The notes beneath the pieces were generated by a model that searched no databases, had not been told where the DNA came from, and saw only the letters and a list, made by a program, of their open reading frames with translations. Below, piece after piece: positions 49,637 to 62,218 of a stretch of 64,000 bases of DNA (its first letter is position 1; each line of letters starts with the position of its first letter). Source of the stretch: a virus (taxonomy: Duplodnaviria; Caudoviricetes); IMG/VR virus record IMGVR_UViG_2974792740_000001, positions 1 to 64,000 of that record; one strand, given 5' to 3'. The position numbers and the translations under genes were made by a program.

Positions 49637-50291
49637 CGATGATGAGGTCGGCCTCAATTATCAGGCGCTCCGCATGTTGTGGCGGTCTCGGGCCATTCAC
49701 CGGCAGGCCGTTACTGACTGGATGACCCAGCGCCCCACCGTCGATGAAGTTGAGTTGCCCGAGGATGTGACGGAGAAGCTGCAACGCCTCGCCGCGCAGA
49801 ACTCCCGCCGGCCTGACGCTGTGCAGCTCATTCAGCAAATCCCGTATGTGGTTGCGTGGTTTCGGGAATCGATGGTCGCTGGGTCTCATCCGGGCGGCGA
49901 AGAGGACATCAAGTCTTCTGCTGGCCCCTCGTCTCGCCCACCTTTTCGTGTGGCGTTCATGTCGGCTGCTGATCGTGAGGTGGCCGCTCTGGTGCATTGG
50001 TGTCACGAGTGTGGCGTCAGTGTGCGTGGCCCGGTGTACATGGTTGCCGGGTCTATCCGTGGTGTGTCGCCGCGTGATCCGAGTTCCCCGATCCGCCAGA
50101 TGGCCGAAGAGTTGTCGGACGCTGTTTCGCGGTGGGGTGAACCGGAAGGTATCTACACCGACCCTGAGTTTGGTTTGTGGTCGATTCGTTCTGCGCACTA
50201 CGGCATTTGGCCCGAGTTGGGGTCTTTGTTCACTGAGGATCCGGATGTTCCGGATCCGGATGATGATGTTGAGCCGGAAGGTTTGTTTTGA
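49599..50291 (+). CDS. Hypothetical protein
   Basis: 230-aa ORF in operon orientation. Confidence 0.55.
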   Translation: MQYRDGHDPYTFDDDEVGLNYQALRMLWRSRAIHRQAVTDWMTQRPTVDEVELPEDVTEKLQRLAAQNSRRPDAVQLIQQIPYVVAWFRESMVAGSHPGGEEDIKSSAGPSSRPPFRVAFMSAADREVAALVHWCHECGVSVRGPVYMVAGSIRGVSPRDPSSPIRQMAEELSDAVSRWGEPEGIYTDPEFGLWSIRSAHYGIWPELGSLFTEDPDVPDPDDDVEPEGLF

Positions 50292-51235
50292 CAGAACTGA
50301 TTGCAATGCGGGGCCTGCCTGGTTCCGGGAAGACCACCCGTGCTCGCCGAATCGCCGCCGCCACTGGGGCTGTCGTTGTCGGTCGTGACTTCGAACGCTT
50401 CCAGATGTTCGGCGAGTGGTGGACTGGCGGCAAACCCGAGCACGAGGATGCAGTCACGGTCGCCCTGAACGCCAAGGTGCGAGCCTTGCTGAAGGCGAAT
50501 CAATCTGTGGTCGTTGACAACACGCACATTCGCCTCGGTTACCTGAAGGATTGGGCGAAGGTCGCTTCGGAGTGTGGGGCCACGTTCCGGATTGAAGACG
50601 TGAAGACGGACGTTGAAGAGTGCATCCGCCGAGACAATGACCGTTTTCACAACTTCGGTGGCGACCGGGCGAGCTTGGGTGGCGACAGACTGGTGGGCGA
50701 GCAGGCGATTCGCCGAATGGCATCACGCATTGACTGGCGTATGCCGAAGCCGGTAGCGCCCATTGAGATCGAACCCGTTGACCACAAGGTTGCCGAAGAG
50801 CTGATGCTTCCCGGCGCGATCCTCGTGGACATCGACGGCACACTCGCCCACATGACGGGGCGCAGCCCGTACGACTACAGCCGCGTTGGTGAAGACATGG
50901 TGGACTTCGCTGTTCGCGGGATCGTTCAGGACTACGAAGAACTCGGTTACGACATCATCGTGTGCTCGGGCCGTGACGACGAATGCCGCACCATGACCGT
51001 GGCATGGTTGCTCGCCAACGACATCCCGTTCCACAAGCTGCTCATGCGGCCCACGGACGCCAAGGACGCCAACGGCAACAAACTCCCCGACTGGATCGTC
51101 AAATACAACCTGTTCAACGAGAACGTGCGCGGCAAGTACGACGTGGCATTCGTCCTCGACGACCGCAATCAGGTTGTGGACATGTGGCGCAAGCTCGGGC
51201 TGAAGTGTTTGCAGGTTGCCCCCGGCGACTTCTGA
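50288..51235 (+). CDS. pnk: Polynucleotide 5'-kinase / 3'-phosphatase (T4 PseT-like)
   Basis: GLPGSGKTT P-loop plus HAD domain DIDGT, CSGR, VLDDR. Confidence 0.93.
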   Translation: MTELIAMRGLPGSGKTTRARRIAAATGAVVVGRDFERFQMFGEWWTGGKPEHEDAVTVALNAKVRALLKANQSVVVDNTHIRLGYLKDWAKVASECGATFRIEDVKTDVEECIRRDNDRFHNFGGDRASLGGDRLVGEQAIRRMASRIDWRMPKPVAPIEIEPVDHKVAEELMLPGAILVDIDGTLAHMTGRSPYDYSRVGEDMVDFAVRGIVQDYEELGYDIIVCSGRDDECRTMTVAWLLANDIPFHKLLMRPTDAKDANGNKLPDWIVKYNLFNENVRGKYDVAFVLDDRNQVVDMWRKLGLKCLQVAPGDF

Positions 51236-51405
51236 TGTACGTCGCGCCGGATCGTCCAGCTCTCGAATGCCAGGCGTGCGGTATGGCACTGCAAGCACTC
51301 ACTGACGAGCAAGCCGCCGACATGGCACTCAATCCCTACAACTACATCGCCTTTTGTGCCCCGTGTAAGCGCAAGGGCTATCACATAGAACCAGGATTCT
51401 TATGA
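51235..51405 (+). CDS. Small Zn-ribbon protein
   Basis: MYVAPDRPALECQACG..FCAPCK; TGATG overlap. Confidence 0.5.
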   Translation: MYVAPDRPALECQACGMALQALTDEQAADMALNPYNYIAFCAPCKRKGYHIEPGFL

Positions 51406-52718
51406 CCAACAGTCTCTCTGTTGTCGGCAGTAGCAACTACGCCGCACAGATCGTCCGAGTGCCCGCCACCTACCCGCTCGACGGACTCGATAACCTCGTC
51501 GGCATCAAGGTTTTCAACAGCCAAATCCTCACCCAGAAGGGCGAAGTCGAACCGGGCGACCTCCGCGTCTACTTCCCCGCAGAGGTTCGCCTCTCCGACA
51601 AGTACCTGTCGGCCAACAACCTGTTCCGGGATCCGTTCCTCAACCGGGACAGCACGGCCACACCCGGCTACTTCGAAACCAACGGTCGCGTCAAGGCAAT
51701 CAAGCTGCGCGGGCACCGCTCGGACGGCCTGCTGATGCCGATCGAATCTCTGCTCGCCTTCGGTGCTCGCGGAGAGGATCTGGTTGAGGGTGCCGTGTTC
51801 GACACCATCAACGGGATCGAGATTTCCCGCAAGTATGAGGTGAAGACCAATGCGCCGGCCGATCCCTCAGCGAAGAAGGTGAAGAAGGCGTTCAAGCGGG
51901 TCACCACGAAGGTGTTCCCCGAGCACATCGACACCGACAACTTCTTCCGCAACCAGCACCTTCTCGACACGTCGCGGGAAGTCATCATCACCCAGAAGTT
52001 GCACGGCACGAGCATCCGTGTGGGGCGCGTTCCGGTGCTGCGCGAGATCGGCTGGGTGGAGCGCATCTTCAACAAGGTGGGTGGCCTGTTCGGCATCTCC
52101 ACGGCTTCGCACGCCTACGAGGTTGTGTGTGGTTCGCGGAAGGTCATCAAGGATGTGACGAACCCGCGCAGCCAGCACTACTACGGCACGGACATCTGGT
52201 CACAGTACGGCATCCAGATCGGTGACCTGATCCCCGAGGGGTTCATCGTGTACGGCGAGTTGATCGGTTGGACGCCGGATGGCAAGCCGATTCAGAAGAA
52301 CTACACCTACGACGTGCCGGTTGGTAAGCGTGAGCTGTACGTGTACCGGGTGGCTCGCGTGGATGTGAATGGCACGATGACGGATTTGTCGTGGGATGCG
52401 GTGCGTGAGTTTTGCGTTGAGCGTGGGCTGAAGCATGTGCCCGAGCTGTGGCGGATCAATGACGAGTACACGACAGCTTACGGTGAGGATCTTGAAGAGC
52501 ACGTCTTGGAGCTGATGGACAAGCGTCACGCCGATCTCGATTGGCAGCCCAAGGATCCGCAGATTCCTTTGTCCGATCCGAAGACGGTTGATGAGGGTGT
52601 GTGCATCCGCCAGGAGCGGCTTGTTCCCACGATCCTGAAGGCGAAGTCGCCTGTGTTCTTGCAGCACGAAACCAAGCAGCTCGATACGGGCGAAGCCGAC
52701 CTCGAAAGCGCAGCATGA
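51402..52718 (+). CDS. RNA ligase (Rnl2 / DRB0094-like)
   Basis: N-terminal OB-like domain; TQKLHGTS (motif I), VYGE, VDEGVCIR (IV), KAKS (V). Confidence 0.88.
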   Translation: MTNSLSVVGSSNYAAQIVRVPATYPLDGLDNLVGIKVFNSQILTQKGEVEPGDLRVYFPAEVRLSDKYLSANNLFRDPFLNRDSTATPGYFETNGRVKAIKLRGHRSDGLLMPIESLLAFGARGEDLVEGAVFDTINGIEISRKYEVKTNAPADPSAKKVKKAFKRVTTKVFPEHIDTDNFFRNQHLLDTSREVIITQKLHGTSIRVGRVPVLREIGWVERIFNKVGGLFGISTASHAYEVVCGSRKVIKDVTNPRSQHYYGTDIWSQYGIQIGDLIPEGFIVYGELIGWTPDGKPIQKNYTYDVPVGKRELYVYRVARVDVNGTMTDLSWDAVREFCVERGLKHVPELWRINDEYTTAYGEDLEEHVLELMDKRHADLDWQPKDPQIPLSDPKTVDEGVCIRQERLVPTILKAKSPVFLQHETKQLDTGEADLESAA

Positions 52719-53566
52719 CAGTTCACCTGTACGCAGCCGACCTCACCGACAGGTCGAAACCACTCATCAACGTTCAACGCTTCCAGTTTCCCGGTGGCGA
52801 ACAACACCTCCACATGCCCGCCCTGATCGACGGACACGAGTACGAATGGGTTGCTGTAGTCAAGGGGGCCGACGCCAACGAACTCGTCACAGCGGGCCTC
52901 CTGGCCGACATCGCCTACCAGCGAGGGGAAGCATCCTCACTCCTGCTGCCCTACCTTCCGGCTGCACGGGCTGATCGGGGCCAGCCGTTCGCCCTCGACA
53001 CCTACGCGAATGTCATTGGCGCACTCAACTTCGACGTGGTTGCCACTCTCGATGTTCACAGCCAGGTAGGCATCGATATGGAGTTCGGGGACTCCTACCA
53101 TGTGCACCTGTCGGCCACTCCGCTTGTGGTTGCGGCGGTTGAGCATCAGGACAAGTTTGATGCTGTGATCGCTCCGGACTCTGGCGCTTTCGATCGTGCG
53201 CAGTCGGTGGCCCTGGCCCTGCGGGTGCCGGTGTACAGCGGCGTGAAGGAACGGGACTTCGCGACCGGGAAGCTCAGCAACTTCTATTACTCGGGTCCGA
53301 CCGACGGCAATTTCCTTGTGGTCGATGACATCTGTGATGGTGGTGGCACGTTCGCCGGGTTTGCTGCGGTGTCGGGGATTCCTCGCGAGAACCTGTCGTT
53401 GTGGATCACGCATGGCATCTTCTCGAAGGGCTCTGCGTCGAATTTGTTCCGCAATTACAAGGCTGTGTACACGACGGATTCGCATCCGGGTTCGGCGAAT
53501 CTTCATGCGACTGTTCGTGTGCCGGTTGTGCCGCACATGTGGAAGCACGTAGCAGGAGGTCTGTGA
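52715..53566 (+). CDS. Ribose-phosphate pyrophosphokinase-like protein (candidate Adps of NARP1)
   Basis: FPGGEQH, PYLPAARADR, LDVHS, IAPDSGA, VVDDICDGGGTF. Confidence 0.88.
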   Translation: MTVHLYAADLTDRSKPLINVQRFQFPGGEQHLHMPALIDGHEYEWVAVVKGADANELVTAGLLADIAYQRGEASSLLLPYLPAARADRGQPFALDTYANVIGALNFDVVATLDVHSQVGIDMEFGDSYHVHLSATPLVVAAVEHQDKFDAVIAPDSGAFDRAQSVALALRVPVYSGVKERDFATGKLSNFYYSGPTDGNFLVVDDICDGGGTFAGFAAVSGIPRENLSLWITHGIFSKGSASNLFRNYKAVYTTDSHPGSANLHATVRVPVVPHMWKHVAGGL

Positions 53567-53784
53567 TGGGTCGGATGCAAGTCAAGGATGTGGAGTCCAC
53601 CAAGCGCGTTCTCTCTATGGCTGACGATCAGTCGAAGTTGATCCTAACGGAAGCGCTGGGATCTGGCGTTGCGGTCATAGAGGTTGCCGGTAGTTCCTAC
53701 AGTGCGTACGCCAGCATTGTGCTCGACAAAGAGTCCGCAGTCATTCTCGGTGAACGCCTCATCGAATTCGGAAGCCAACCCTGA
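53566..53784 (+). CDS. Small hypothetical protein between the Prs-like and Nampt-like genes
   Basis: SD AGGAGG, TGATG overlap, 72 aa. Confidence 0.55.
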   Translation: MGRMQVKDVESTKRVLSMADDQSKLILTEALGSGVAVIEVAGSSYSAYASIVLDKESAVILGERLIEFGSQP

Positions 53785-53792
53785 AAGGGAAC

Positions 53793-55280
53793 ATGACAAG
53801 CACACGTACCTATTTCGAACCCGTAGCGGCACTCTTCCAGACCGACGCCTACAAGCTCGGACACATCCAGCAATACCAGCTCGCCGGAAACGTCACCCGC
53901 GTCTACAGCAACTACACCAACCGCAAGAGTCGAATCCCCGGCGTCGACAACGTTGTCCACTTCGGCCTTCAGGCATTCATCCAGAAGAACCTCATGGAAG
54001 CGTTTGAACCGTTCTTCGAGTCCGATGAGGACGTGGTTGCCGAACTGTACGAAGAGCGTGTCACGTCGATCCTGGGGCCGAATACGATCGGTTCCGATCA
54101 CATCCGTGCACTGCACCGACTCGGGTATCTTCCGCTGCGGTTCTGTGCGGTCCCGGAAGGCACCCTCGTGCCCATCCGGATCCCCTCGTTCACGGTGGAG
54201 AACACTCTGCCTGAGTTCTTCTGGCTGACCAACTACATCGAGACCGCCCTGTCGGCTGGTGTGTGGCAGGCGAGCACGTCGGCCACCATTGCCAGCGAGT
54301 ACCGGCAGATCCTTGACACGGCGGCGTGGGAGACGGGTAGCAGCTTCGATGCTGTCGACTTCCAGGTTCACGATTTCAGCTACCGGGGAATGAGTTCCAA
54401 TGAGTCTGCGCAGGTTTCGGGTGCGGCGCACCTGCTTTCGTTCTCCGGGACGGACTCTCTGGTCGCTCTCGATTGGATTGACCGCTACTACGGAGGCTCG
54501 GATTACGTTGCGGCGTCAGTCCCGGCGACAGAGCACAGTGTCATGTGCACCGGAATCGCCAAGCTCGGTGAGCAGGAAATGTTCTCCAAGCTTCTCGACC
54601 TCTACCCGTCGGGGATCGTTTCCGTCGTGTCAGACACCTTCGATCTGTGGCGTGTCCTCACGGAGTACCTGCCAGCACTGCGCACTAAGGTACTTGCGCG
54701 AGACGGGAAGCTAGTCATCCGCCCGGACTCGGGCGACCCGCAGAAGATCATCTGTGGCGACCCTGACGCCCCTGAGGGCAGCAATGAGTACCTGGGTGTG
54801 ATCGGCCTGCTGGATCGCACGTTCGGTTCGACTCCGAACAAGCTCGGCTACTACGAGCTGGACTCGCACGTCGGCATCATCTACGGCGATTCGATCACCG
54901 TGGAGCGGGCAAAGGCGATCACTGACGATCTGGCTTCGCAGAACTACGCGAGCACGAATGTGGTGTTCGGTGTCGGTAGCTTCACCTACCAGTACAACAC
55001 GCGTGACACCTTCGGTTCGGCGATGAAGGCTACGTGGGCTGAGGTGGACGGTGAGGGTGTCAATCTGCTGAAAGACCCGATCACTGACGATGGCACGAAG
55101 AAGTCGGCTACGGGCCGTCTGGCGGTCAATGTGGATGACATGGGTGCCTGGACCCTGACCGAGAAGGCTAACGAATGGGAAGAGGCCCTGAGTGACCTTC
55201 AGCCCGTTTGGGAGAACGGTCAGTTCATCCAGCGTCAGACCTTCCAGGACGTGAGGAAGAAGCTCGCATACTGGGGGTGA
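53793..55280 (+). CDS. Nicotinamide phosphoribosyltransferase-like protein (candidate Namat of NARP1)
   Basis: TDAYKLGH, HDFSYRG, GTDS, ATEHSVM, SVVSDTFD, IRPDSGDP, GDSIT, RDTFG..K, KKSATG. Confidence 0.92.
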   Translation: MTSTRTYFEPVAALFQTDAYKLGHIQQYQLAGNVTRVYSNYTNRKSRIPGVDNVVHFGLQAFIQKNLMEAFEPFFESDEDVVAELYEERVTSILGPNTIGSDHIRALHRLGYLPLRFCAVPEGTLVPIRIPSFTVENTLPEFFWLTNYIETALSAGVWQASTSATIASEYRQILDTAAWETGSSFDAVDFQVHDFSYRGMSSNESAQVSGAAHLLSFSGTDSLVALDWIDRYYGGSDYVAASVPATEHSVMCTGIAKLGEQEMFSKLLDLYPSGIVSVVSDTFDLWRVLTEYLPALRTKVLARDGKLVIRPDSGDPQKIICGDPDAPEGSNEYLGVIGLLDRTFGSTPNKLGYYELDSHVGIIYGDSITVERAKAITDDLASQNYASTNVVFGVGSFTYQYNTRDTFGSAMKATWAEVDGEGVNLLKDPITDDGTKKSATGRLAVNVDDMGAWTLTEKANEWEEALSDLQPVWENGQFIQRQTFQDVRKKLAYWG

Positions 55281-55285
55281 CCTGA

Positions 55286-55825
55286 TTGGCGATCGACTAC
55301 ACCAAGCCGACTGCCGGTAGGGACTCGATGGCCGGAAAGTTGCTGGCGCAGAAACAGGGTCGCACTACTGGGCTACGCGACTCGGTGTCGTGGGGCGCGG
55401 AACGCGAACTGCTGATGCAGGTTGGCGAGCAGTTGAAAGCCATACACGGGGCGGTCGATGGACCCAAGCCGGTACAGAAGATTTCGTACAAGAAAGTACG
55501 CAAGCCTGATGTTTCATCGGCCCCCCGCTTCAAGGCCCTAAAGCCATGCCCACGGTGTGGCGCGTGGCGAGTCCACCGACTGGCCGAGCCCAACCCGGAC
55601 CCACCCAACGTGGTCGACAACGGCGAAATCCTCTGCTCCGCAGACGACATCAACGCCGAAGTCTACCTCGGGTGGGCCACCTCAACGACCGAGATTGTCG
55701 GCTACGGCAACCTTCAGCCAACGAGGACCATCAAGAACGGGCCGCGACTCGACCGCTTCGACGAACGAGGATTCGAGGTCATTCGCATCTGCCCAGAATG
55801 CGCACACACATGGGGTGAAATCTGA
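55286..55825 (+). CDS. Hypothetical Zn-finger protein
   Basis: CPRCG..H and CPECAHTW. Confidence 0.6.
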   Translation: MAIDYTKPTAGRDSMAGKLLAQKQGRTTGLRDSVSWGAERELLMQVGEQLKAIHGAVDGPKPVQKISYKKVRKPDVSSAPRFKALKPCPRCGAWRVHRLAEPNPDPPNVVDNGEILCSADDINAEVYLGWATSTTEIVGYGNLQPTRTIKNGPRLDRFDERGFEVIRICPECAHTWGEI

Positions 55826-55857
55826 ACACACACAAACAGATCGCATACGACAACCTG

Positions 55858-56592
55858 ATGATGCTCGGCATAGCAGGATCGCAGCTCTACGGCACCAACC
55901 TGGACAACGGCGACAACGACCAGATGGGTGTTTGCCTGGAACCGCCCGCCTACGTGACTGGACTGGAAACCTTCGAGCAGTACCAGTACCATTCCGCCGG
56001 CAAGGACACTCGTTCCAGCGCAGACGATCTCGATCTCACGATCTACAGTCTCCGCAAATGGGCAAAGCTTGCAGCGGCAGGCAACCCCACGGTCCTGCTG
56101 TTGGGGTTCACTCCCGATGAGCTACTGCTCCATGACAGCCTGGACGGTCGGATCCTTCGCTACTCGATGCACCGTTTCATGTCCCGGCAGGCTGCGGGCA
56201 AGTTCTACGGCTACCTGGAATCCCAACGCAAGCAGATGCTCGGTCTCACCGGACGTAAGCACAGCAACCGGCCAGAGCTGGTCGAGCAGTTCGGTTTCGA
56301 CACCAAGTTCGCCTACCACGCAGTGAGACTCGGAATGCAAGGCGTCGAGTACCTGACGACGGGCGAGATGACGCTGCCCATGCGGGAAGAGGAACGCAAC
56401 TACCTGATCGACATCAGGCAAGGCCGCGAGTCCTTCGACGATGTGGTCACGGTCATCAACCTGTACCAAGGGCTGCTGCTCAAGCTGATGCGTTCCGCCG
56501 AGCTGCCCCCGCGTGCCGACTATCAGTGGATTAATCGGTGGCTCACTGACACGTATGTGATCCACTGGAACGAGAGGGGCTATCTGCTCTGA
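55858..56592 (+). CDS. Pol-beta-fold nucleotidyltransferase (RlaP/PF10127-like); true start possibly CTG 55822
   Basis: AGSQLYGTN..DNDQMG (GS..DxD-like), NPTVL, GFDTKFAYHAVRL, LIDIRQG. Confidence 0.82.
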   Translation: MMLGIAGSQLYGTNLDNGDNDQMGVCLEPPAYVTGLETFEQYQYHSAGKDTRSSADDLDLTIYSLRKWAKLAAAGNPTVLLLGFTPDELLLHDSLDGRILRYSMHRFMSRQAAGKFYGYLESQRKQMLGLTGRKHSNRPELVEQFGFDTKFAYHAVRLGMQGVEYLTTGEMTLPMREEERNYLIDIRQGRESFDDVVTVINLYQGLLLKLMRSAELPPRADYQWINRWLTDTYVIHWNERGYLL

Positions 56593-56834
56593 CGGTCTGG
56601 CTCGACGAAACCGAGGCAATCACATTCATAGGGCGGCACAAACGCACCCTACGCAGATGGCGCAAGCATCGGATCGTTGTAGCCCGTCGCACCAAGTACG
56701 GCTACGAGTACGACAAACAATCCCTGCGATCCGCGAAACTGCGTATGGCGCAAAGGGCTGACGAACAGGAGTACAACGGTGGACGACCGCGAAAATACGC
56801 CCCCCAGCCAGGAGACATGGATTACCTCTTCTGA
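56589..56834 (+). CDS. HTH DNA-binding protein with candidate CTG start (81 aa), absent from ORF track
   Basis: Translated by hand: (M)TVWLDETEAITFIGRHKRTLRRWRKHRIVVARRTKYGYEYDKQSL...; GAGAGGGG SD upstream; CTGA overlap with the upstream stop. Confidence 0.6.
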   Translation: MTVWLDETEAITFIGRHKRTLRRWRKHRIVVARRTKYGYEYDKQSLRSAKLRMAQRADEQEYNGGRPRKYAPQPGDMDYLF

Positions 56835-56979
56835 CTACGACCGCGCTGTGCACATCATCGCCGAATCGGCGTACGGGCGTGAGCCCACTGCCGAGGATTT
56901 GAACCAGGCTGAGAAGCTGGTCGCGGTGTTCTACAGCCTCGTGGATGCGAAGCTAATCGCGTGTCCCCCTGGGGAGTAA
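56779..56979 (+). CDS. Hypothetical protein
   Basis: AGGAG SD then GTG; 66 aa. Confidence 0.45.
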   Translation: MDDRENTPPSQETWITSSDYDRAVHIIAESAYGREPTAEDLNQAEKLVAVFYSLVDAKLIACPPGE

Positions 56980-57043
56980 TGTTGTAAGTGAATCGGGGTT
57001 GAGAGAGCGCCCAAGACATTGAACGGCGCTCCCCACTCCGAGG

Positions 57044-57099
57044 CTGACTGCGTTGCCGATTGGATCGGAATCAACGCGGGTTCGAATCCCGCCAGTCAG
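57044..57099 (+). ncRNA. Mini tRNA-like element (acceptor-like stem plus T-arm, no canonical D/anticodon arms)
   Basis: CTGACTG / CAGTCAG ends; GCGGG-TTCGAAT-CCCGC T-arm. Confidence 0.5.
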
Positions 57100-57102
57100 A
57101 CG

Positions 57103-57233
57103 GGCGCAGATGCGTAGATTGTGGTTACTTCACTAATTGGATATGCAGGTTCAAGTCCTGCCGTCAAGCCTCTCAGGCCGCTGAGCCTTGATGCTCGACG
57201 TTTGTTCCACGATCGACCAAGTTCCCTCGCGCC
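57103..57233 (+). ncRNA. Y-RNA-like module 1 (YrlA-like, with T-arm)
   Basis: GGCGC/GCGCC, AGATGCG, GATTGTGG/CCACGATC, TTACTTC, T-arm GCAGG-TTCAAGT-CCTGC. Confidence 0.7.
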
Positions 57234-57240
57234 AACTACC

Positions 57241-57315
57241 ACCCCAGATGCGAAGGCTGCACAGTTACTTCAATTGGATGAAACGCACACTGTGTGCCAT
57301 CCAGTCCCCTGGGGT
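57241..57315 (+). ncRNA. Y-RNA-like module 2 (minimal)
   Basis: ACCCCAG/CTGGGGT, GATGCGAAG, GCACAG/CTGTGT, TTACTTC. Confidence 0.65.
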
Positions 57316-57325
57316 TACATCTTCA

Positions 57326-57473
57326 CGTTCAGATGCGTAGAGACGTTGGTTACTTCCATGCTAAGGACGAGGTTGCGGGTTCGAATCCCGCCCAGTCAGG
57401 CCGCAAGGCAGGTCAGGTAGCTCAATCGGCTAGAGCGCGTAAACACACCAACACTCGGCAAGTTCCCTGAACG
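57326..57473 (+). ncRNA. yrlA: Y-RNA-like module 3 (YrlA: permuted T-arm, closed acceptor hairpin, D-arm)
   Basis: CGTTCAG/CTGAACG, AGATGCG, GTTGGT/ACCAAC, TTACTTC; T-arm GCGGG-TTCGAAT-CCCGC precedes D-arm TA-GCTC-AATCGGCTA-GAGC; upstream of Ro60. Confidence 0.8.
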
Positions 57474-57485
57474 ATCAAACATTCC

Positions 57486-57570
57486 GCCGTGATGCGAAGC
57501 ACGAACGTTACTTCATCAGTTGCTAAAGAAACCGAACAGAAACACGTTCATGCAACTCAGTTCACACGGC
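57486..57570 (+). ncRNA. Y-RNA-like module 4 (minimal)
   Basis: GCCGTG/CACGGC, GATGCGAAG, GCACGAACG/CGTTCATGC, TTACTTC. Confidence 0.65.
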
Positions 57571-57597
57571 ACAATTCAACACACAGGAGCAGAAGGA

Positions 57598-59196
57598 ATG
57601 TCGCGCTACAACACCGCCACCAAGGCCCGACCCGCACAAAAGTCGAGCGCCATCAAGGCCGGTACGAAGCCCAAAACCAACCCACAGGGTGGAATCGGAT
57701 TCAAGCGCGGCGACGCCAAGTCCGAACTGTTCCTCTCCGCTGCAACCTCATTCATGCAGCCCAAATTCTATGAAACCGAAAGCGACCTGCGCGCACGTCA
57801 GCGCAAGCTCATCGCCAAGGTGGCCGTCTCCGACCCGGAGTGGACTTTCGAGTTCCTGACGTGGCTCCGCACCGAGGGCAACCTGCGCACCGGGTCGCTC
57901 ACCCTGGCCGCTGACGCGGTTCGGGAACGCCTGAAGGCGGGCAAAACGGGCTGGAACCGGCAGATCATCTCCACGGTCCTGCGCCGGCCTGACGAGCCTG
58001 GCGAAATGCTGGCCTACTGGACAACCAACTACGGTCGCAACGTGCCGATCTCGGTCAAGCGTGGCATCGCGGACGTCATTGAGGGCCAGTACAACGAGCG
58101 CAACTTTCTGAAGTACGACAGCGCGTCTCGCGCCTTCCGGTTCGGTGATGTGATCGAGCTGACCCATCCGAAGATGACGGGCAGCCGGGGTGATCTCGCC
58201 TCGTATGCGATCACTGTGGGTAAGGGCCATGACGCCGAGATCCCGTCTTCCCTCTCGATGATCCGAAAGAATCGCAACCTGCGTCAGTGGACTCCCGGCG
58301 AGATCGTGGAGCGCGCAAAGTACCGGGGCGACGATCTGATGCCACTGAGCGACGTGCTCAGCGCAGCAGGTATGACGTGGGAAGATATTCCCGCACTCGT
58401 CAACGGCCCCTGGACGCCCGAACTGTGGGAAGCCGCCATCCCCAACATGGGCGTGATGGCCCTCATGCGGAACTTGAGAAACTTCGACCAAGTCGGCATC
58501 TCCAAGCAAGCCGCAAAGATGGTCCGCGACAAACTGTCCGACCCTGAGGCTGTCCGCAAGTCCCGAATCCTTCCCCTCCGTGCACTGTCCGCCTACAAGG
58601 CTGTCAGCAATTCGCGCTGGCACGGCGCACTCGAAGACGCCGTGGACATCACTCTGGATAACGTGCCCGCCCTGAAGGGCCGCACGCTGATCCTGGTGGA
58701 CTGCTCGGGCTCCATGTTCTTCGGTAACGGAACTGATCTGAGCTACGCAGAGTCGGCAGCAGTGTTCGGTACTGCACTCGCGGCGAAGGCAGAGAAGGCC
58801 ACCCTCGTGCACTACGGGTCCAGCTCGCGAGAGGTTCCGGTCCCACGTGGCGCTTCGGTGTTGGAGATGGCCCGCTCGGTGCACAGCATGGGCGGCACAG
58901 CCACCGCAGCAGCGATCCAGCAGCACTACAACGGCCACGATCGTGTCATCCTGCTGACTGATGAGCAGCACAACGGTGGCGGCTACGGATGGGGCTCGCG
59001 CTACGTGTCTCAGAACCCGAGCGACTACGTGCCAAAGCACATTCCGCTCATCACCTTCAACCTCGCCGGATACAAGCTCGGCGGCGTCAAGGACGGCCCT
59101 AATCGGCTGACATTCTCGTCGCTGTCCGACTCGGCCTGGAAGCTTGTTGACATGTTCGGCAACGGCATGTCCGGATGGCCCTGGGAGGCAAACTGA
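57598..59196 (+). CDS. rsr: Ro60 / TROVE-domain RNA-binding protein
   Basis: NPQGGIGF, SELFLS, LRRPDEPGE, KRGIAD, MGVMALMRNLRNF, SRILP; vWA MIDAS LVDCSGSM, GGT, LLTDEQ; SD upstream of ATG 57598. Confidence 0.93.
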   Translation: MSRYNTATKARPAQKSSAIKAGTKPKTNPQGGIGFKRGDAKSELFLSAATSFMQPKFYETESDLRARQRKLIAKVAVSDPEWTFEFLTWLRTEGNLRTGSLTLAADAVRERLKAGKTGWNRQIISTVLRRPDEPGEMLAYWTTNYGRNVPISVKRGIADVIEGQYNERNFLKYDSASRAFRFGDVIELTHPKMTGSRGDLASYAITVGKGHDAEIPSSLSMIRKNRNLRQWTPGEIVERAKYRGDDLMPLSDVLSAAGMTWEDIPALVNGPWTPELWEAAIPNMGVMALMRNLRNFDQVGISKQAAKMVRDKLSDPEAVRKSRILPLRALSAYKAVSNSRWHGALEDAVDITLDNVPALKGRTLILVDCSGSMFFGNGTDLSYAESAAVFGTALAAKAEKATLVHYGSSSREVPVPRGASVLEMARSVHSMGGTATAAAIQQHYNGHDRVILLTDEQHNGGGYGWGSRYVSQNPSDYVPKHIPLITFNLAGYKLGGVKDGPNRLTFSSLSDSAWKLVDMFGNGMSGWPWEAN

Positions 59197-59197
59197 C

Positions 59198-59293
59198 ATG
59201 GACCCCCTGACAATGCTTGGCCTCGTCGCTATCGGCATCTTCATCGGCGGAGTCTTCGGAATCTCCGCGTACGACTACTTTCTCAATCATTGA
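59198..59293 (+). CDS. Tiny membrane protein (31 aa), not in ORF track
   Basis: MDPLTMLGLVAIGIFIGGVFGISAYDYFLNH; fills the gap between Ro60 and prim-pol. Confidence 0.5.
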   Translation: MDPLTMLGLVAIGIFIGGVFGISAYDYFLNH

Positions 59294-60006
59294 GTGAGCT
59301 ACACGATGCCGCGCTGAACTACCTGTACGAAGGATTCCAAGTCTTCCCGCTATGGCCTGGCGGGAAAACCCCACTCGTCGAGAACGGCTTGCACGAAGCA
59401 ACCGACAATCCCACCACCGTGGACAAATGGTGGGGACGCTGGCCGCAAGCCAACATCGGGGTGAGGGTGCCAGAACGAGTGATCGTGATCGACATAGACC
59501 CCCGCTCCGGGGGCGCACTCGACCAGCTTGGAAACATCCCAAGAACACGCACAGCCGCAACAGGTGGCGGCGGATGGCATCTCCTATTCAGGCATGTTGG
59601 ACGAGCACGAGGGAAGCTGGATGAGGCCCGTGGTATCGACATCAAAACTAACAGCGGCTATATCGTTGGTGCGCCAAGCGTTCACGAGTCTGGCCGACGC
59701 TATCGCTGGACTGATCGCGGCCCTATCGCAGACCTTCCGGCATCCCTGCTCCGTCGTGTATCCCCTGCTCCCCCGCAGGTGGTGTGGGACGACCCTGGTG
59801 TGGGCTCCACCAAGGGATTGGTTGCCACTGTCGCGGATGCGGTTGAGGGCGAACGGAACCACAAATTCTTCTGGGCTGCGTGTCGGGCCTATCAAGAGGG
59901 GGCTGATCCTGAGTTGATGGGCGCGTTGGTGAATGCTGCTCGTTCGATTGGGTTGACTGAGCGTGAGATTGGGTTGTCCCTTCGTTCTGCTCAGGCCCGC
60001 GTGTAG
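59290..60006 (+). CDS. Bifunctional DNA primase/polymerase (Prim-Pol N-terminal type)
   Basis: VFPLWPGGKTP, WWGRWPQANIG, VIDIDPRSGG, TGGGGWHL, GYIVGAPSVH. Confidence 0.9.
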   Translation: MSELHDAALNYLYEGFQVFPLWPGGKTPLVENGLHEATDNPTTVDKWWGRWPQANIGVRVPERVIVIDIDPRSGGALDQLGNIPRTRTAATGGGGWHLLFRHVGRARGKLDEARGIDIKTNSGYIVGAPSVHESGRRYRWTDRGPIADLPASLLRRVSPAPPQVVWDDPGVGSTKGLVATVADAVEGERNHKFFWAACRAYQEGADPELMGALVNAARSIGLTEREIGLSLRSAQARV

Positions 60007-60106
60007 CTGAGTAGAAGTTTCGGCTCCGTTTCATGGACACTCCAACGTCAATCAAACGGGCAGTCCCTTTCTAGGACAAAAGTCCTGTGCGGCAACACAG
60101 GCATCT

Positions 60107-60181
60107 GCCCGCGTAGCTTAATGGTAAAGCCCCGGCTTGTGGTGCCGGTGATTACGGTTCGACTCCGTGCGCGTGGAACCA
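60107..60181 (+). tRNA. tRNA-His(GTG), imperfect acceptor stem
   Basis: Anticodon arm CCGGC-TTGTGGT-GCCGG, D-arm GCTT/AAGC, T-loop TTCGACT; acceptor has mismatches and lacks C73. Confidence 0.65.
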
Positions 60182-60183
60182 AC

Positions 60184-60318
60184 GGCCGATAGTCCAATGG
60201 AGTGGTCCCCACATATCGAACTAGCGGGCGTGCACGCCGACGGCTAGCGAATTTCTGTGAAGGGTCCAGGACGCCCCAAATGGTGGAGGAAATGCGGGTT
60301 CGAATCCCGCGAGGCCGA
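60184..60318 (+). ncRNA. tRNA-like RNA with a structured insertion of about 60 nt in the D-loop and a degenerate anticodon arm
   Basis: CGGCC/GGCCG ends, D-stem GTCC/GGAC, T-arm GCGGG-TTCGAAT-CCCGC. Confidence 0.5.
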
Positions 60319-60437
60319 CGAAATGACCGGACGACCGTGGAAGCCGGTTGGTCATGAACGAGCGCAACTTGCCTGCCGGTGGCTAGGTTGCGTCTGGTAG
60401 ACGGTGGGGCTTCCGGAAACAATTCCCCACCTCGCAA

Positions 60438-60514
60438 TCGCATGTAGTTCAAAGGGTAGAGCAACCGGGCGTACGCTGAACCGGGGAATGTGGGTTCGAA
60501 TCCCACCATGCGGG
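60438..60514 (+). ncRNA. tRNA-like RNA with 12-nt anticodon loop
   Basis: TCGCATG/CATGCGG acceptor, GTTC/GAGC D-arm, CCGG-GCGTACGCTGAA-CCGG, T-arm GTGGG-TTCGAAT-CCCAC. Confidence 0.65.
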
Positions 60515-60546
60515 CTGCGCTTGATCGTGCGCGTAAACGATCGGCT

Positions 60547-60619
60547 GCCTTAGAAACCGAATTGGCTAGGTGCCTGACTTCCAATCAGGATTTTGCGGGT
60601 TCAAGTCCCGTCTAAGGCT
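60547..60619 (+). tRNA. tRNA-Gly(TCC)
   Basis: GCCTTAG/CTAAGGC acceptor, CCTGA-CTTCCAA-TCAGG, U73. Confidence 0.88.
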
Positions 60620-60753
60620 CCGGCCCTGCTGCTGGGGACCGATATGCCGAGTAACCAAGACTCGGTGCAGTAGCGCGGTGGTGGTGGCTAGATTCCAACA
60701 ACACGTCACTAGGGTTGCAACCTGCCGATAGCGCTGTCGGCTGAATAGCTCCA

Positions 60754-60828
60754 CTCTCCGTAGCTCAGATGGTTTAGAGCAGGGCACTCTTAATGCTCGG
60801 GTCGCAGGTTCGAACCCTGCCGGGGAGA
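60754..60828 (+). tRNA. tRNA-Lys(CTT)
   Basis: CTCTCCG/CGGGGAG acceptor, GGGCA-CTCTTAA-TGCTC, canonical D and T arms. Confidence 0.9.
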
Positions 60829-60905
60829 CGGCCCTCCTGCTGGGGTTATACGCCAGATCGCTACTGGCACAGCAGGGCATCAGGCAACGTCGGGCCTGAT
60901 GTTTC

Positions 60906-60974
60906 GTCGCATAAGTCTCAGCGGCAAGAGCTGGGGGTATTCCCCTGGTCGCCGGTTCGATTCCGGCTGCGACA
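60906..60974 (+). ncRNA. tRNA-like RNA with shrunken (3-5 nt) anticodon loop
   Basis: GTCGCA/TGCGAC acceptor, CTC/GAG D-arm, GGGG-GTATT-CCCC, T-arm GCCGG-TTCGATT-CCGGC. Confidence 0.62.
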
Positions 60975-61171
60975 CGATGGGGTGGTATTCCCAGTTAGCA
61001 CAACCAGTCGACGGTCCGTGCTTGAAAAATGACCAGGGCGGCATTGCAGTGCCAACTAGCCACGACGGACTAAGCCCGATGAAGGCCGTCTAACCCCTCG
61101 CTGGTCAAGCCCTGCAAGGTACGGGCCGGGGACAATTTGGAGTGCACATCAAGCGGGGGTGCACTCATTCG

Positions 61172-61255
61172 GGGCTTGTGGCGGAATTGGCAGACGCGCC
61201 GGATTCAAAATCCGGAGTCCTTTCGGACGTGTGGGTTCGACCCCCACCAGGCCCA
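61172..61255 (+). tRNA. tRNA-Leu(CAA)
   Basis: GGGCTTG/CAGGCCC acceptor, CCGGA-TTCAAAA-TCCGG, long variable arm. Confidence 0.92.
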
Positions 61256-61256
61256 C

Positions 61257-61511
61257 ATGGCACTGAGACCGCCACCACTGGCAGAACCCCATGAGGTTGA
61301 TGACCTCTCGCATCTCGAAGCACTGAGGCGACTTTCAGCCATCAGCGCGTACACGTACGCGGCCCACAATCAAGTGGATGCGGACGTGAACTCAATGGCA
61401 ACGAAGGGCTGTTGGGCACCACCAATCGAGCACGGTACCTACAAGCCGGGTCACGCACCTTCGGGTGCGTATGCCCGCCTGATCGGCCTGCTCACGAAGG
61501 GAAAGAAGTAG
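61257..61511 (+). CDS. Hypothetical protein
   Basis: ATG 2 nt after tRNA-Leu; 84 aa. Confidence 0.45.
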   Translation: MALRPPPLAEPHEVDDLSHLEALRRLSAISAYTYAAHNQVDADVNSMATKGCWAPPIEHGTYKPGHAPSGAYARLIGLLTKGKK

Positions 61512-61514
61512 CAC

Positions 61515-61700
61515 ATGTTTGGACGTAAGAAGAAGCGCGCCACCAGCGCCACGCCCTCGCGCAGCAGCTACGACAGCTGCAGCAGCACCACCCCGTATGG
61601 CGGCTACAGCAACAGCGGCTACGACAGCGGCTCGTCCTACTCGTCGTCGTGTGACAGCTCGTCGTCCTCGTCTTCGTGTGACAGCGGCGGAAGCTTCTGA
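61515..61700 (+). CDS. Small Ser-rich low-complexity protein
   Basis: MFGRKKKR...SSSCDSSSSSSSCDSGGSF. Confidence 0.55.
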   Translation: MFGRKKKRATSATPSRSSYDSCSSTTPYGGYSNSGYDSGSSYSSSCDSSSSSSSCDSGGSF

Positions 61701-61891
61701 TGGGTACCGCGCTGGTAATCGGGGGGATTCTCCTCGGGGCGCTGCTCATCGGCGCGGCGGTCGCATGTGTCGCAAAGGCTGTGCTCGACTCGCCTCTGTC
61801 GCAGGGTGTTGCGCAGGGAAGCTCCACCTACAAGGGTGGGTTTGACCTCAGTCATCCCACTGGGGTTGCGCTACTGGTGGCGGCTACCTGA
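61700..61891 (+). CDS. Small membrane protein
   Basis: N-terminal TM helix; TGATG overlaps. Confidence 0.55.
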   Translation: MGTALVIGGILLGALLIGAAVACVAKAVLDSPLSQGVAQGSSTYKGGFDLSHPTGVALLVAAT

Positions 61892-61986
61892 TGGAGTTCC
61901 TGGCAATCGTTGGCGCAGTGACATGCATCGCCGTAATCTGTTATGTCGCAGTCGGCGTCGGGGTTCTCATCACGCTCTCGCGGTGA
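61891..61986 (+). CDS. Tiny membrane protein (31 aa), not in ORF track
   Basis: MEFLAIVGAVTCIAVICYVAVGVGVLITLSR; TGATG overlap. Confidence 0.45.
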   Translation: MEFLAIVGAVTCIAVICYVAVGVGVLITLSR

Positions 61987-61994
61987 GCCCGTAT

Positions 61995-62065
61995 TCCCTG
62001 ATCGTCTAACGGCAGGACGCCGCGCTCTGGACGCGGAGATTGAGGTTCGAATCCTTGTCGGGGAG
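61995..62065 (+). tRNA. tRNA-Gln(CTG)
   Basis: TCCCTGA/TCGGGGA acceptor, CCGCG-CTCTGGA-CGCGG. Confidence 0.9.
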
Positions 62066-62126
62066 CTTGCCCTTGGGATGGGGTATAGCGCGGTTGGCCG
62101 AACCGCGATAAACAAAATGGCCGTAA

Positions 62127-62205
62127 CCGGGTAACCGCATGGAGCGGAATGGGACTGTAAATCCCAGGCGGAAACGCACCGGAGGTTCGATTCCTTCTAC
62201 CCGGA
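62127..62205 (+). tRNA. tRNA-Tyr(GTA)
   Basis: CCGGGTA/TACCCGG acceptor, TGGGA-CTGTAAA-TCCCA, long variable arm, short D-loop. Confidence 0.82.
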
Positions 62206-62218
62206 CCCAACAGACGAA

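What the first reader, a model, noticed from the sequence alone, without database searches (positions are those of the whole stretch)
57103..57570. Tandem array of four Y-RNA-like modules with invariant motifs and fully co-varying stems upstream of Ro60
Seen: four units (57103-57233, 57241-57315, 57326-57473, 57486-57570) share the scaffold stem1 - GAUGCG(U/A)AG - stem2 - UUACUUC - variable domain - stem2' - (A/C)AGU(U/C)C - stem1'. Stem sequences differ in every unit yet pair (GGCGC/GCGCC, ACCCCAG/CUGGGGU, CGUUCAG/CUGAACG, GCCGUG/CACGGC; second stems likewise), which is strong evidence of selection on RNA structure. Units 1 and 3 carry tRNA-like cargo (unit 3 has the permuted T-arm, closed acceptor, D-arm order of YrlA); units 2 and 4 carry only short loops. 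Established: Ro60 binds a bulged helix in Y RNA stems and Y RNAs tether Ro60 to effectors such as PNPase; bacterial loci typically have one or two. From memory, the motif order echoes vertebrate Y1 (GGUCCGAAG..GUUAUCUCAAUUG versus GAUGCGAAG..GUUACUUCAAUUG here); this needs checking. Inference: a modular one-protein, four-adaptor RNP system in which interchangeable Y RNAs gate Ro60 or recruit different partners or decoy different host nucleases; the minimal units would likely be missed by YrlA models.
Basis: partly seen in the sequence, partly recalled or inferred. Interest (0 to 1): 0.93.

Follow-up and report, generated by a model that had tools for sequence, protein, structure and literature searches.

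The report
Tandem Y RNA array, phage Ro60
A Gordonia phage carries four small structured RNAs in a row just upstream of its Ro60 gene, all built on one Ro60-binding frame but with different heads; they are bacterial-type Y RNAs, a known kind, in a larger set than the bacterial relatives surveyed here carry, and the standard RNA library misses them.

Summary
The composite 5' motif plus UUACUUC occurs four times in 64 kb, at the stated places, with none expected by chance. Each unit's 5' arm pairs best with its own 3' arm.

The units are bacterial-type Y RNAs:
- They lie 27-495 nt upstream of a Ro60/TROVE gene, on the same strand.
- Unit 3 matches Rfam YrlA at E 2.7e-8 but below the gathering score. 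Units 1, 2 and 4 match no Rfam family.
- That model gives 135 hits in 80 Ro60 loci, all on the Ro60 strand and all upstream of the gene, with strong covariation.

Bacterial loci hold 1-3 such units, usually 2. The seven isolated actinophages hold 3-5, and one viral contig up to 8. So four units is typical for these phages, not unique.

Prior art exists: YrlA near Ro60 in 22 phages (Chen 2014), and two Y-like RNAs bound by the Ro60 of Thermus phage phiLo (2025).

Binding, expression and the four-adaptor function are untested. The scan had already noted this same stretch from another window of the same genome.

Verdict: real, a new variant of a known kind, of moderate interest.

The parts
56993..57041 (+). 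Long imperfect hairpin ahead of the array; role unknown (leader or processing element?). Membership in the system is uncertain.
   Evidence: The fold of 56985-57102 gives -48.7 kcal/mol, z -3.39, with 0 of 200 shuffles as stable. The 5' strand is identical in Rabbitrun and the 3' strand carries mostly C-to-U changes. No sigma-70-like promoter was found at 56500-59400.
57044..57099 (+). tRNA-like element heading the array. It has a 7-bp acceptor-like stem (57044-57050 with 57093-57099), one long hairpin in place of the D and anticodon arms, and a perfect T-arm (57076-57092). It ends 3 nt before unit 1. Inferred to be an RNase P / RNase Z processing signal.
   Evidence: Fold. T-arm match to tmRNA/tRNA T-arm positions. 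Not called as a tRNA by ARAGORN or Rfam. The acceptor stem has two compensatory pair changes in Rabbitrun (CUGACUG/CAGUCAG versus CUGAUCG/CGAUCAG).
57103..57233 (+). Y RNA unit 1. Outer stem 57103-57107 with 57229-57233; 5' motif at 57109-57117; inner stem 57117-57124 with 57207-57214; UUACUUC at 57125-57131; T-arm-like hairpin 57145-57161 followed by a long hairpin; no D-arm.
   Evidence: Model R1 matches its 5' half only (16.7 bits, E 0.004 with filters off).
57241..57315 (+). Y RNA unit 2, minimal hairpin type. It has a 7-bp outer stem, an asymmetric internal loop carrying the 5' and 3' motifs, an inner stem, UUACUUC, and an A-rich loop containing AUGAAAC.
   Evidence: R1 (built without this phage) scores 43.5 bits, E 5.3e-7 over the whole window, with exact ends. 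Fold z -2.79. Arm pairing -25.2 kcal/mol, matched by 3 of 2956 random windows.
57326..57473 (+). Y RNA unit 3, YrlA type. Same frame as the others, plus V region, T-arm 57375-57391, closed acceptor-like region, and D-arm 57420-57436.
   Evidence: Rfam YrlA RF02553 scores 44.1 bits, E 2.7e-8, model positions 1-114, at 57351-57467. This is below the gathering score of 69. Arms pair.
57486..57570 (+). Y RNA unit 4, minimal hairpin type with an A-rich loop. It ends 27 nt before the Ro60 start codon.
Evidence: Fold z -2.62.
57585..57597 (+). Purine-rich ribosome-binding region (AGGAG ... GAAGGA) before the Ro60 start. No terminator-like site lies between unit 4 and the gene.
   Evidence: Sequence read. 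The terminator scan finds none in 57571-57597. Relatives VanLee and Kradal do have one there.
57598..59196 (+). Ro60 / Rsr homologue (TROVE plus vWA), 532 aa.
   Evidence: Pfam TROVE 7.3e-16. PDB hits to Thermus phage phiLo Ro60 9KOP at 2.9e-19 and D. radiodurans Rsr 2NVO at 1.6e-7. NCBIfam Rsr 1.9e-10, far below its equivalog cut-off. 90.5% identical to the 'Ro-like RNA binding protein' of Rabbitrun.
50288..56592 (+). Neighbourhood, not part of the array: PNKP kinase-phosphatase (50288-51235), RNA ligase (51402-52718), Prs-like and Nampt genes, and RlaP nucleotidyltransferase (55858-56592). A tRNA cluster follows at 60106-62207.
   Evidence: Pfam HAD_PNKP 3.7e-50, RNA_ligase 4.6e-15, NAPRTase 1.4e-36, RlaP 8.8e-28. 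Seven tRNAs.

Best explanation
The stretch encodes four bacterial-type Y RNAs. Each has an outer stem formed by its 5' and 3' ends, then an asymmetric internal loop or bulged helix that carries the conserved 5'-strand motif (the Ro60 site). Next comes a second stem, equivalent to the YrlA 'anticodon' stem, then the YUAY-type motif UUACUUC, and then a variable head.

The heads differ. Unit 3 has a full permuted tRNA-like head (YrlA type). Unit 1 has a T-arm plus a hairpin. Units 2 and 4 have short A-rich loops (YrlB/Yrn2-like).

Inferred steps, none of them shown:
1. The array is transcribed as one precursor, here probably together with the Ro60 mRNA.
2. It is cut at the tRNA-like leader by RNase P and RNase Z, and in the 7-12-nt G-free spacers by host endonucleases.
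3. Each RNA binds one phage Ro60 ring through the shared frame.
4. The different heads tether Ro60 to different partners. PNPase is the precedent for the single-stranded loops, and an unknown tRNA-elbow binder for the tRNA-like heads. They may also gate the Ro60 cavity.
5. The RNPs serve RNA quality control or repair during infection, alongside the adjacent PNKP, RNA ligase, RlaP and tRNA genes.
For: - Motif and pairing statistics.
- Ro60 identity of the downstream gene.
- YrlA match of unit 3.
- Model R1, built from 30 minimal units of other bacterial and viral Ro60 loci, finds units 2 and 4 with exact ends.
- R1 gives 135 hits in 80 loci, all on the Ro60 strand and all upstream of Ro60.
- On that alignment 81.5% of cells pair. 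The covariation score is 0.380, against 0.128 in shuffles (0 of 500 reach it) and at most 0.094 when partners are slid. 16 of 19 pairs show double changes. The independent MAFFT seed alignment gives 0.321 against 0.136.
- In each of the seven isolated phages the units share one variant of the 5' internal-loop motif, and in five of them one 3' variant too, while the stems differ. This is as expected if all units must fit one cognate protein.
- UUAC aligns to the YUAY motif and CCGAAG to the GNCGAAN0-1G motif of YrlA; Chen 2014.
- Published precedent: M. smegmatis YrlA and YrlB come from one precursor and bind Rsr (PMC4201824). Thermus phage phiLo Ro60 binds two upstream Y-like RNAs and forms a complex with host PNPase (PMC12135203).
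- Indels between this phage and Rabbitrun are not multiples of three and fall in the heads.
Against: - No expression or binding data exist, and no RNA run was available.
- No promoter was found upstream, so the transcription unit is unknown.
- Units 1 and 3 were not recovered whole by R1, because their heads are too long for that model.
- Unit 3 is below Rfam's YrlA threshold, and the literal GNCGAAN0-1G pattern is not met (UGCGWAG here).
- Pairing inside the internal loop could not be fixed. Only UG with CA is constant among the four units.
- Single-sequence fold z-scores of units 1 and 3 are weak (-1.55 and -0.26).
- The A4 alignment is fitted to the model, so it leans towards the structure.
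Confidence: 0.8

Rival explanations
1. The units act mainly in cis, as a structured leader of the Ro60 mRNA. Ro60 would bind its own 5' UTR and control translation or stability, rather than the units being released as free Y RNAs.
For: In this phage no terminator-like site separates unit 4 from the Ro60 ribosome-binding site, which is 27 nt away.
Against: In VanLee and Kradal a strong intrinsic terminator lies between the last unit and Ro60, so there the array is a separate transcript. By eye the same holds in GiJojo, BRock and Frankenweenie. Bacterial Y RNAs of the same build are released and bound in trans (PMC4201824).
Confidence: 0.07
2. The tRNA-like units (1 and 3) and the tRNA-like leader work without Ro60, as decoys or sponges for host tRNA-targeting nucleases or tRNA-binding defence proteins. 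The Ro60 frame would be incidental.
For: T-arm and D-arm mimicry. The neighbourhood is rich in tRNA repair genes and tRNAs.
Against: This does not explain units 2 and 4, which have no tRNA-like part. It also does not explain why the shared frame is the best conserved part across 80 Ro60 loci and always sits on the Ro60 strand.
Confidence: 0.06
3. Only one or two units are working Y RNAs. The others are recent duplicates drifting towards loss.
For: Bacterial relatives manage with 1-3 units. Unit 4 scores low with R1.
Against: All four frames are kept almost unchanged between this phage and Rabbitrun. The 801-nt query around the array is 82.5% identical overall, but most change lies in the heads. 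The stems of the four units differ at nearly every position yet pair, which is not the pattern of recent copies. Arrays of 3-5 units are kept in seven phages whose Ro60 proteins are only 34-48% identical to this one.
Confidence: 0.08
4. The stretch is protein-coding, as annotated in Rabbitrun (gp93, gp94, and an early Ro60 start).
For: GenBank annotation of NC_060133. An ORF at 57121-57420 exists in the window.
Against: Indels of 10, 14, 23, 25 and 1 nt between the two phages break any shared frame. Conservation follows base pairing, not codons.
Confidence: 0.01

Closest known systems
YrlA (Rfam RF02553; Chen et al. 2014, PMC4201824; structure: bioRxiv 10.1101/312249)
   Same: Encoded just upstream of Ro60 on the same strand. 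The 5' and 3' ends form the stem with the Ro60 site. A CGAA-type 5'-strand motif is followed by a YUAY motif after the second stem, then a T-arm, closed acceptor stem and D-arm (unit 3).
   Different: Unit 3 scores 44 bits against a gathering score of 69, and Rfam aligns only 57351-57467, missing the real Ro60 module. The 5' motif is UGCGWAG, not the literal GNCGAAN0-1G. The whole actinobacterial/actinophage clade sampled here is below threshold (38-47 bits). Units 1, 2 and 4 lack part or all of the tRNA-like head.
YrlB / Yrn2-type hairpin Y RNAs (S. Typhimurium, M. smegmatis, D. radiodurans; PMC4201824)
   Same: [quoted passage not shown] M. smegmatis YrlB also has a T-arm, like unit 1.
   Different: No curated model exists. 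Here there are two minimal units plus a T-arm-only unit, in a fixed frame that ends in UUACUUC, with A-rich rather than pyrimidine-rich loops. The order here is mixed, whereas M. smegmatis has YrlA-YrlB-rsr.
Thermus phage phiLo Ro60 with Yrl1 and Yrl2 (NAR 2025, PMC12135203; PDB 9KOP, 9L5Y)
   Same: A phage-encoded Ro60 with Y-like RNAs directly upstream, found through the CGAA motif. Binding was shown, and a ternary complex with host PNPase. It is the best PDB match of this Ro60 (2.9e-19).
   Different: Two RNAs rather than four. No tRNA-like head is mentioned in the passages retrieved (0 occurrences of 'tRNA-like'). The host phylum is distant.
Vertebrate Y RNAs (RNY1) and nematode sbRNAs
   Same: Same order of elements: 5'-strand CGAAGG, an upper-stem strand, then a UUAYYUC-type motif opening the loop. 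UUAUC is a known conserved loop motif (PMC4726728). Nocardia relatives carry GCUGGUCCGAAGG, identical to RNY1 positions 2-14.
   Different: No hit to any metazoan Y RNA family of Rfam at E up to 10. The 3' strand of this phage's internal loop (CA, then AGUUCC-like) differs from the vertebrate UUGAC. Homology versus convergence on Ro60 binding is not resolved.
D. radiodurans rsr locus with four small RNAs a-d (Chen 2000, 2014)
   Same: Several small RNAs encoded upstream of rsr.

Membership tests
Bacterial Y RNA, YrlA type (RF02553) | Encoded within about 4 kb of a Ro60 gene on the same strand | tested here: met
   Units lie 27-495 nt upstream of the TROVE gene at 57598-59196, + strand.
Bacterial Y RNA, YrlA type (RF02553) | Score at or above Rfam gathering threshold (69 bits) | tested here: not met
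   No hit at the gathering score. Unit 3 scores 44.1 bits, E 2.7e-8. Units 1, 2 and 4 have no YrlA hit at E up to 10.
Bacterial Y RNA, YrlA type (RF02553) | T-arm, closed acceptor-like stem-loop and D-arm, in that permuted order | tested here: met
   Met for unit 3 only (T-arm 57375-57391, D-arm 57420-57436). Unit 1 has a T-arm plus hairpin and no D-arm. Units 2 and 4 have none.
Bacterial Y RNA, YrlA type (RF02553) | 5'-strand motif GNCGAAN0-1G | tested here: not met
   The literal pattern is absent. Units 2 and 4 have UGCGAAG and units 1 and 3 have UGCGUAG. The CGAA core is present in units 2 and 4 only. In a Nocardia relative the motif aligns to this part of the model.
Bacterial Y RNA, YrlA type (RF02553) | Conserved YUAY opening the variable loop after the second stem | tested here: met
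   UUAC of UUACUUC is present in all four units. It aligns to CUAc of the model in a relative (Chen 2014).
Y RNA in the general sense (Ro60-bound RNA) | Stem formed by the 5' and 3' ends, containing a bulged helix or internal loop with a conserved 5' strand | tested here: met
   for this phage. Family-wide covariation.
Y RNA in the general sense (Ro60-bound RNA) | Physical binding to Ro60, and dependence on Ro60 for stability | not testable with these tools
   No RNA or RIP data. The run search listed no RNA holder.
Metazoan Y RNA families of Rfam | Match to the covariance model | tested here: not met
   No metazoan Y RNA family is listed at E up to 10 for 56700-57800 or for the Nocardia array. 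Only motif-level likeness to RNY1.
tRNA (for the leader at 57044-57099) | Cloverleaf with D, anticodon and T arms | tested here: not met
   Not called by ARAGORN or RF00005. Only the acceptor stem, one hairpin and the T-arm are present.

The most novel reading that the evidence does not exclude
Actinophages have expanded the usual two-RNA Ro60 locus of their hosts into cassettes of 3-8 Y RNAs. Each cassette keeps one lineage-specific Ro60-binding frame and swaps the head, so one phage Ro60 can be aimed at several host partners (PNPase, tRNA-elbow binders, others) as part of an RNA-repair or counter-defence island. In addition, the shared CGAAG / stem / UAYYUC layout with vertebrate Y RNAs and nematode sbRNAs may reflect one ancient Y RNA design rather than convergence. 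That would give the metazoan UUAUC motif a Ro60-linked origin.
Probability: 0.25. Interest if true: 0.8.

Novelty: new variant of a known kind. Interest (0 to 1): 0.55.

Why it matters
Y RNAs are thought to work as modular adaptors: a constant Ro60-binding stem plus a variable effector-binding head. In bacteria this rests on a few species with one or two RNAs each.

A phage locus with four RNAs on one frame and three kinds of head is a compact natural test of that idea, in a genetically tractable phage-host pair. So are its relatives with 3-8 units.

The survey has three practical results:
- Rfam's YrlA model misses this whole actinobacterial/actinophage clade at its threshold.
- The minimal Y RNAs have no curated family.
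- Phage annotations currently label these RNAs as hypothetical proteins or as tRNAs.

The motif-level match to vertebrate Y1 sharpens the old question of whether bacterial and animal Y RNAs share an origin.

Tried and rejected
1. Loop-to-3'-strand pseudoknot. The bases just after UUACUUC can pair with the 3' internal-loop strand in all four units (7 bp in unit 2, which dominates its minimum-free-energy fold). Across 133 units, own pairs are barely better than cross pairs (-8.06 against -7.59 kcal/mol, p 0.048). Not adopted.

2. Model R1 on units 1 and 3. Only their 5' halves matched (16.7 and 5.3 bits), because the heads are too long for a model of minimal units. This is no evidence against them.

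3. Fixing the base pairs inside the internal loop. The vertebrate and bacterial register (CGA with UUG, one bulged base) does not fit this phage. UG with CA is the only constant pair. Left open.

4. Promoter scan of 56500-59400: none found, so the transcription start is unknown. A TTGACA-17-GATACT match in BRock overlaps its first unit and was judged a coincidence of the AUACUUC variant.

5. Public sequencing runs: no RNA holder listed.

6. Literature gaps. The supplementary tables of Chen 2014 are not held, and the 2020 Annual Review (PMC10870794) is not held. I could not check whether Gordonia or Streptomyces phages, or arrays of more than two units, are listed there.

7. First anchor-only unit count. 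It undercounted loci with GGCUACUUC, GGGUACUUC and similar variants and was replaced by the model-plus-anchor count.

Full report
WHAT IS THERE

The window is a Gordonia phage. Its closest record is Gordonia phage Rabbitrun (Deeyouvirinae), 82.5% identical over an 801-nt query around the array (window 56900-57700).

The ORF at 57598-59196 is a Ro60/Rsr homologue. Evidence: Pfam TROVE 7.3e-16; PDB matches to the Ro60 of Thermus phage phiLo (9KOP, 2.9e-19) and to D. radiodurans Rsr (2NVO, 1.6e-7).

The 3' motif MAGUYC is present in all four.

Each 5' arm pairs with its own 3' arm at -17 to -25 kcal/mol, and with the arms of the other units at only -7 to -12. Only 3 to 71 of about 3000 random windows do as well. 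The stems differ at almost every position between units yet stay complementary.

WHAT THE UNITS ARE

Rfam reports nothing here at gathering thresholds. With an E-value threshold, unit 3 matches YrlA at 44.1 bits, E 2.7e-8, against a gathering score of 69. The match shows a T-arm, a closed acceptor-like region and a D-arm in YrlA order. Units 1, 2 and 4 match no family.

I therefore looked at relatives. Ro60 homologues in six other isolated actinophages are 34-90% identical in protein: Rabbitrun, VanLee, GiJojo, BRock, Frankenweenie and Kradal. All are preceded by 3-5 tandem units, each with GG(U/A)UACUUC after a second stem.

From 30 minimal units of bacterial and viral Ro60 loci, none from this phage or Rabbitrun, I built covariance model R1.
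- R1 finds unit 2 (43.5 bits, E 5.3e-7) and unit 4 (E 0.05 over the window; 2.4e-4 over 1 kb with filters off).
- Over 80 loci it gives 135 hits. All are on the Ro60 strand and all are upstream of Ro60.
- On the resulting alignment 81.5% of cells pair. The covariation score is 0.380, against 0.128 in shuffles and at most 0.094 with slid partners. The MAFFT seed alignment, which is not fitted to a model, gives 0.321 against 0.136.

Aligning a Nocardia relative to YrlA shows that CCGAAG corresponds to the published GNCGAAN0-1G motif, and that UUAC corresponds to the published YUAY motif opening the variable loop (Chen 2014).

The four units are Y RNAs of three head types:
- full YrlA (unit 3);
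- T-arm plus hairpin (unit 1), like M. smegmatis YrlB, which also has a T-arm;
- minimal hairpins with A-rich loops (units 2 and 4).

HOW COMMON IS THE ARRANGEMENT

I counted model hits plus motif anchors.
- 52 bacterial loci hold 1 (9 loci), 2 (36 loci) or 3 (7 loci) units, usually one minimal unit followed by one YrlA.
- 27 phage or viral loci hold 1-8.
- The seven isolated phages hold 3-5.

Four units is above the bacterial norm but ordinary for these phages. None of 20 such loci has a YrlA hit at gathering score, and their YrlA-type units score 38-47 bits. The library misses the whole clade sampled here.

Annotation reflects this:
- Rabbitrun lists gp93, gp94 and an early Ro60 start over the array.
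- VanLee, GiJojo and Frankenweenie list 'tRNA' genes that overlap YrlA-type units.
- ARAGORN reproduces the VanLee and Frankenweenie calls. The Rfam tRNA model does not call any of the three.

SURROUNDINGS

Directly 5' of unit 1 lies a 56-nt tRNA-like element (57044-57099). It has a 7-bp acceptor stem, one hairpin and a perfect T-arm, and two compensatory acceptor-stem changes in Rabbitrun. No tRNA finder calls it. A long hairpin precedes it (z -3.39).

The spacers between units are 7-12 nt and contain no G.

No terminator-like site separates unit 4 from the Ro60 ribosome-binding site. VanLee and Kradal have a clear terminator at that position.

The wider neighbourhood is an RNA-repair island: PNKP, RNA ligase, RlaP nucleotidyltransferase, NAD-salvage genes and seven tRNAs.

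HOW IT MOST LIKELY WORKS

Shown by computation: the shared frame, family membership, linkage to Ro60, and the head types.

Inferred:
1. One precursor is made, here probably continuous with the Ro60 message.
2. The tRNA-like leader directs RNase P and RNase Z cuts that free the 5' end of unit 1. By analogy, M. smegmatis YrlA is cut by RNase P and YrlA/YrlB come from one precursor.
3. Spacers are cut and trimmed back to the Ro60-protected stems.
4. Each RNA binds Ro60 through the 5'-strand motif. In the X. laevis complex Ro60 mainly reads that strand.
5. The heads recruit different partners. PNPase is the precedent in D. radiodurans and for the phiLo phage Ro60.

One further point supports Ro60 binding. 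Within each of the seven phages the units share one variant of the 5' internal-loop motif, and in five of them one 3' variant too, while the variants differ between lineages. VanLee's 3' strands showed no common motif. Nocardia loci hold two variants side by side, so the rule is not absolute.

THE VERTEBRATE ECHO

The first 30 nt of RNY1 as printed in PMC6052916 read ...GGUCCGAAGG, then UAGUGA, then GUUAUCUCAA. Unit 2 reads ...GAUGCGAAGG, then CUGCACA, then GUUACUUCAA.

UUAUC is a recognised conserved loop motif of vertebrate Y RNAs and nematode sbRNAs (PMC4726728). Nocardia relatives even carry GCUGGUCCGAAGG, identical to RNY1 positions 2-14.

No metazoan Y RNA model matches, and a 2015 review calls bacterial Y RNAs not homologous to the vertebrate clades. 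The likeness is real. Its cause, common descent or a shared Ro60 constraint, is open.

KNOWN OR NEW

Already known:
- Y RNAs beside Ro60 in over 250 bacteria and 22 phages, and at least two Y RNAs per characterised species (PMC4201824);
- a phage Ro60 that binds two upstream Y-like RNAs and host PNPase (PMC12135203).

Not found in the papers I could read:
- uniform-frame arrays of 3-8 units in actinophages;
- the minimal-unit family with its UACUUC hallmark;
- the tRNA-like leader;
- this phage lineage's own internal-loop variant.

I rate the finding a new variant of a known kind. It is solid as an observation, untested as to function, and of moderate interest.

Noticed in passing
window 57044-57099: A 56-nt tRNA-like element (acceptor stem, one hairpin, perfect T-arm) abuts unit 1. 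Its last 24 nt nearly repeat 57375-57399 inside unit 3. The acceptor stem covaries in Rabbitrun.
   Followed up: partly
window 56993-57041: A stable hairpin (z -3.39) lies ahead of the tRNA-like element. Its first 49 nt are identical in Rabbitrun. Function unknown.
   Followed up: no
L001 4155-4512 and 4687; L002 2204-2275; L003 2269-2343; L005 2245-2335: Public annotations overlie Y RNA units. Rabbitrun has gp93, gp94 and an early Ro60 start. VanLee has 'tRNA-Arg', GiJojo 'tRNA-Arg' and Frankenweenie a 91-nt 'tRNA-Pro'. ARAGORN repeats the VanLee and Frankenweenie calls, but the Rfam tRNA model calls none of the three. These are probably misannotations.
   Followed up: partly
L010 / L031 (Nocardia jiangxiensis) 100-900: Five Y-like units lie about 1.6-2.4 kb upstream of Ro60. 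Their 5' strand, GCUGGUCCGAAGG, is identical to human/mouse RNY1 positions 2-14.
   Followed up: partly
L015 (IMG/VR contig) 1440-2450: The largest array seen: up to eight units (five model hits plus three motif anchors) upstream of one Ro60 gene.
   Followed up: no
window 50288-56592: An RNA-repair and NAD-salvage island lies next to the array: PNKP, RNA ligase with an OB-fold domain, Prs-like gene, Nampt and RlaP nucleotidyltransferase.
   Followed up: partly
window 57241-57315: The minimum-free-energy fold of unit 2 prefers an alternative 8-bp helix between the loop (AAUUGGAUG) and the 3' internal-loop strand. This excludes the inner stem, so a conformational switch is possible. It is not supported family-wide.
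   Followed up: yes
L004 4579-4742 (Streptomyces phage BRock): A sub-threshold manA RNA match (49.7 bits against 55.2) lies between tRNA genes downstream of Ro60.
   Followed up: no
L008, L033, L076 (Nocardia loci): Two Ro60-site variants coexist in one locus. Minimal units have GGUGCGAAG with UGUUCUC, and YrlA units have GGUCCGWAG with CUUGUUGUCAGC.
   Followed up: no
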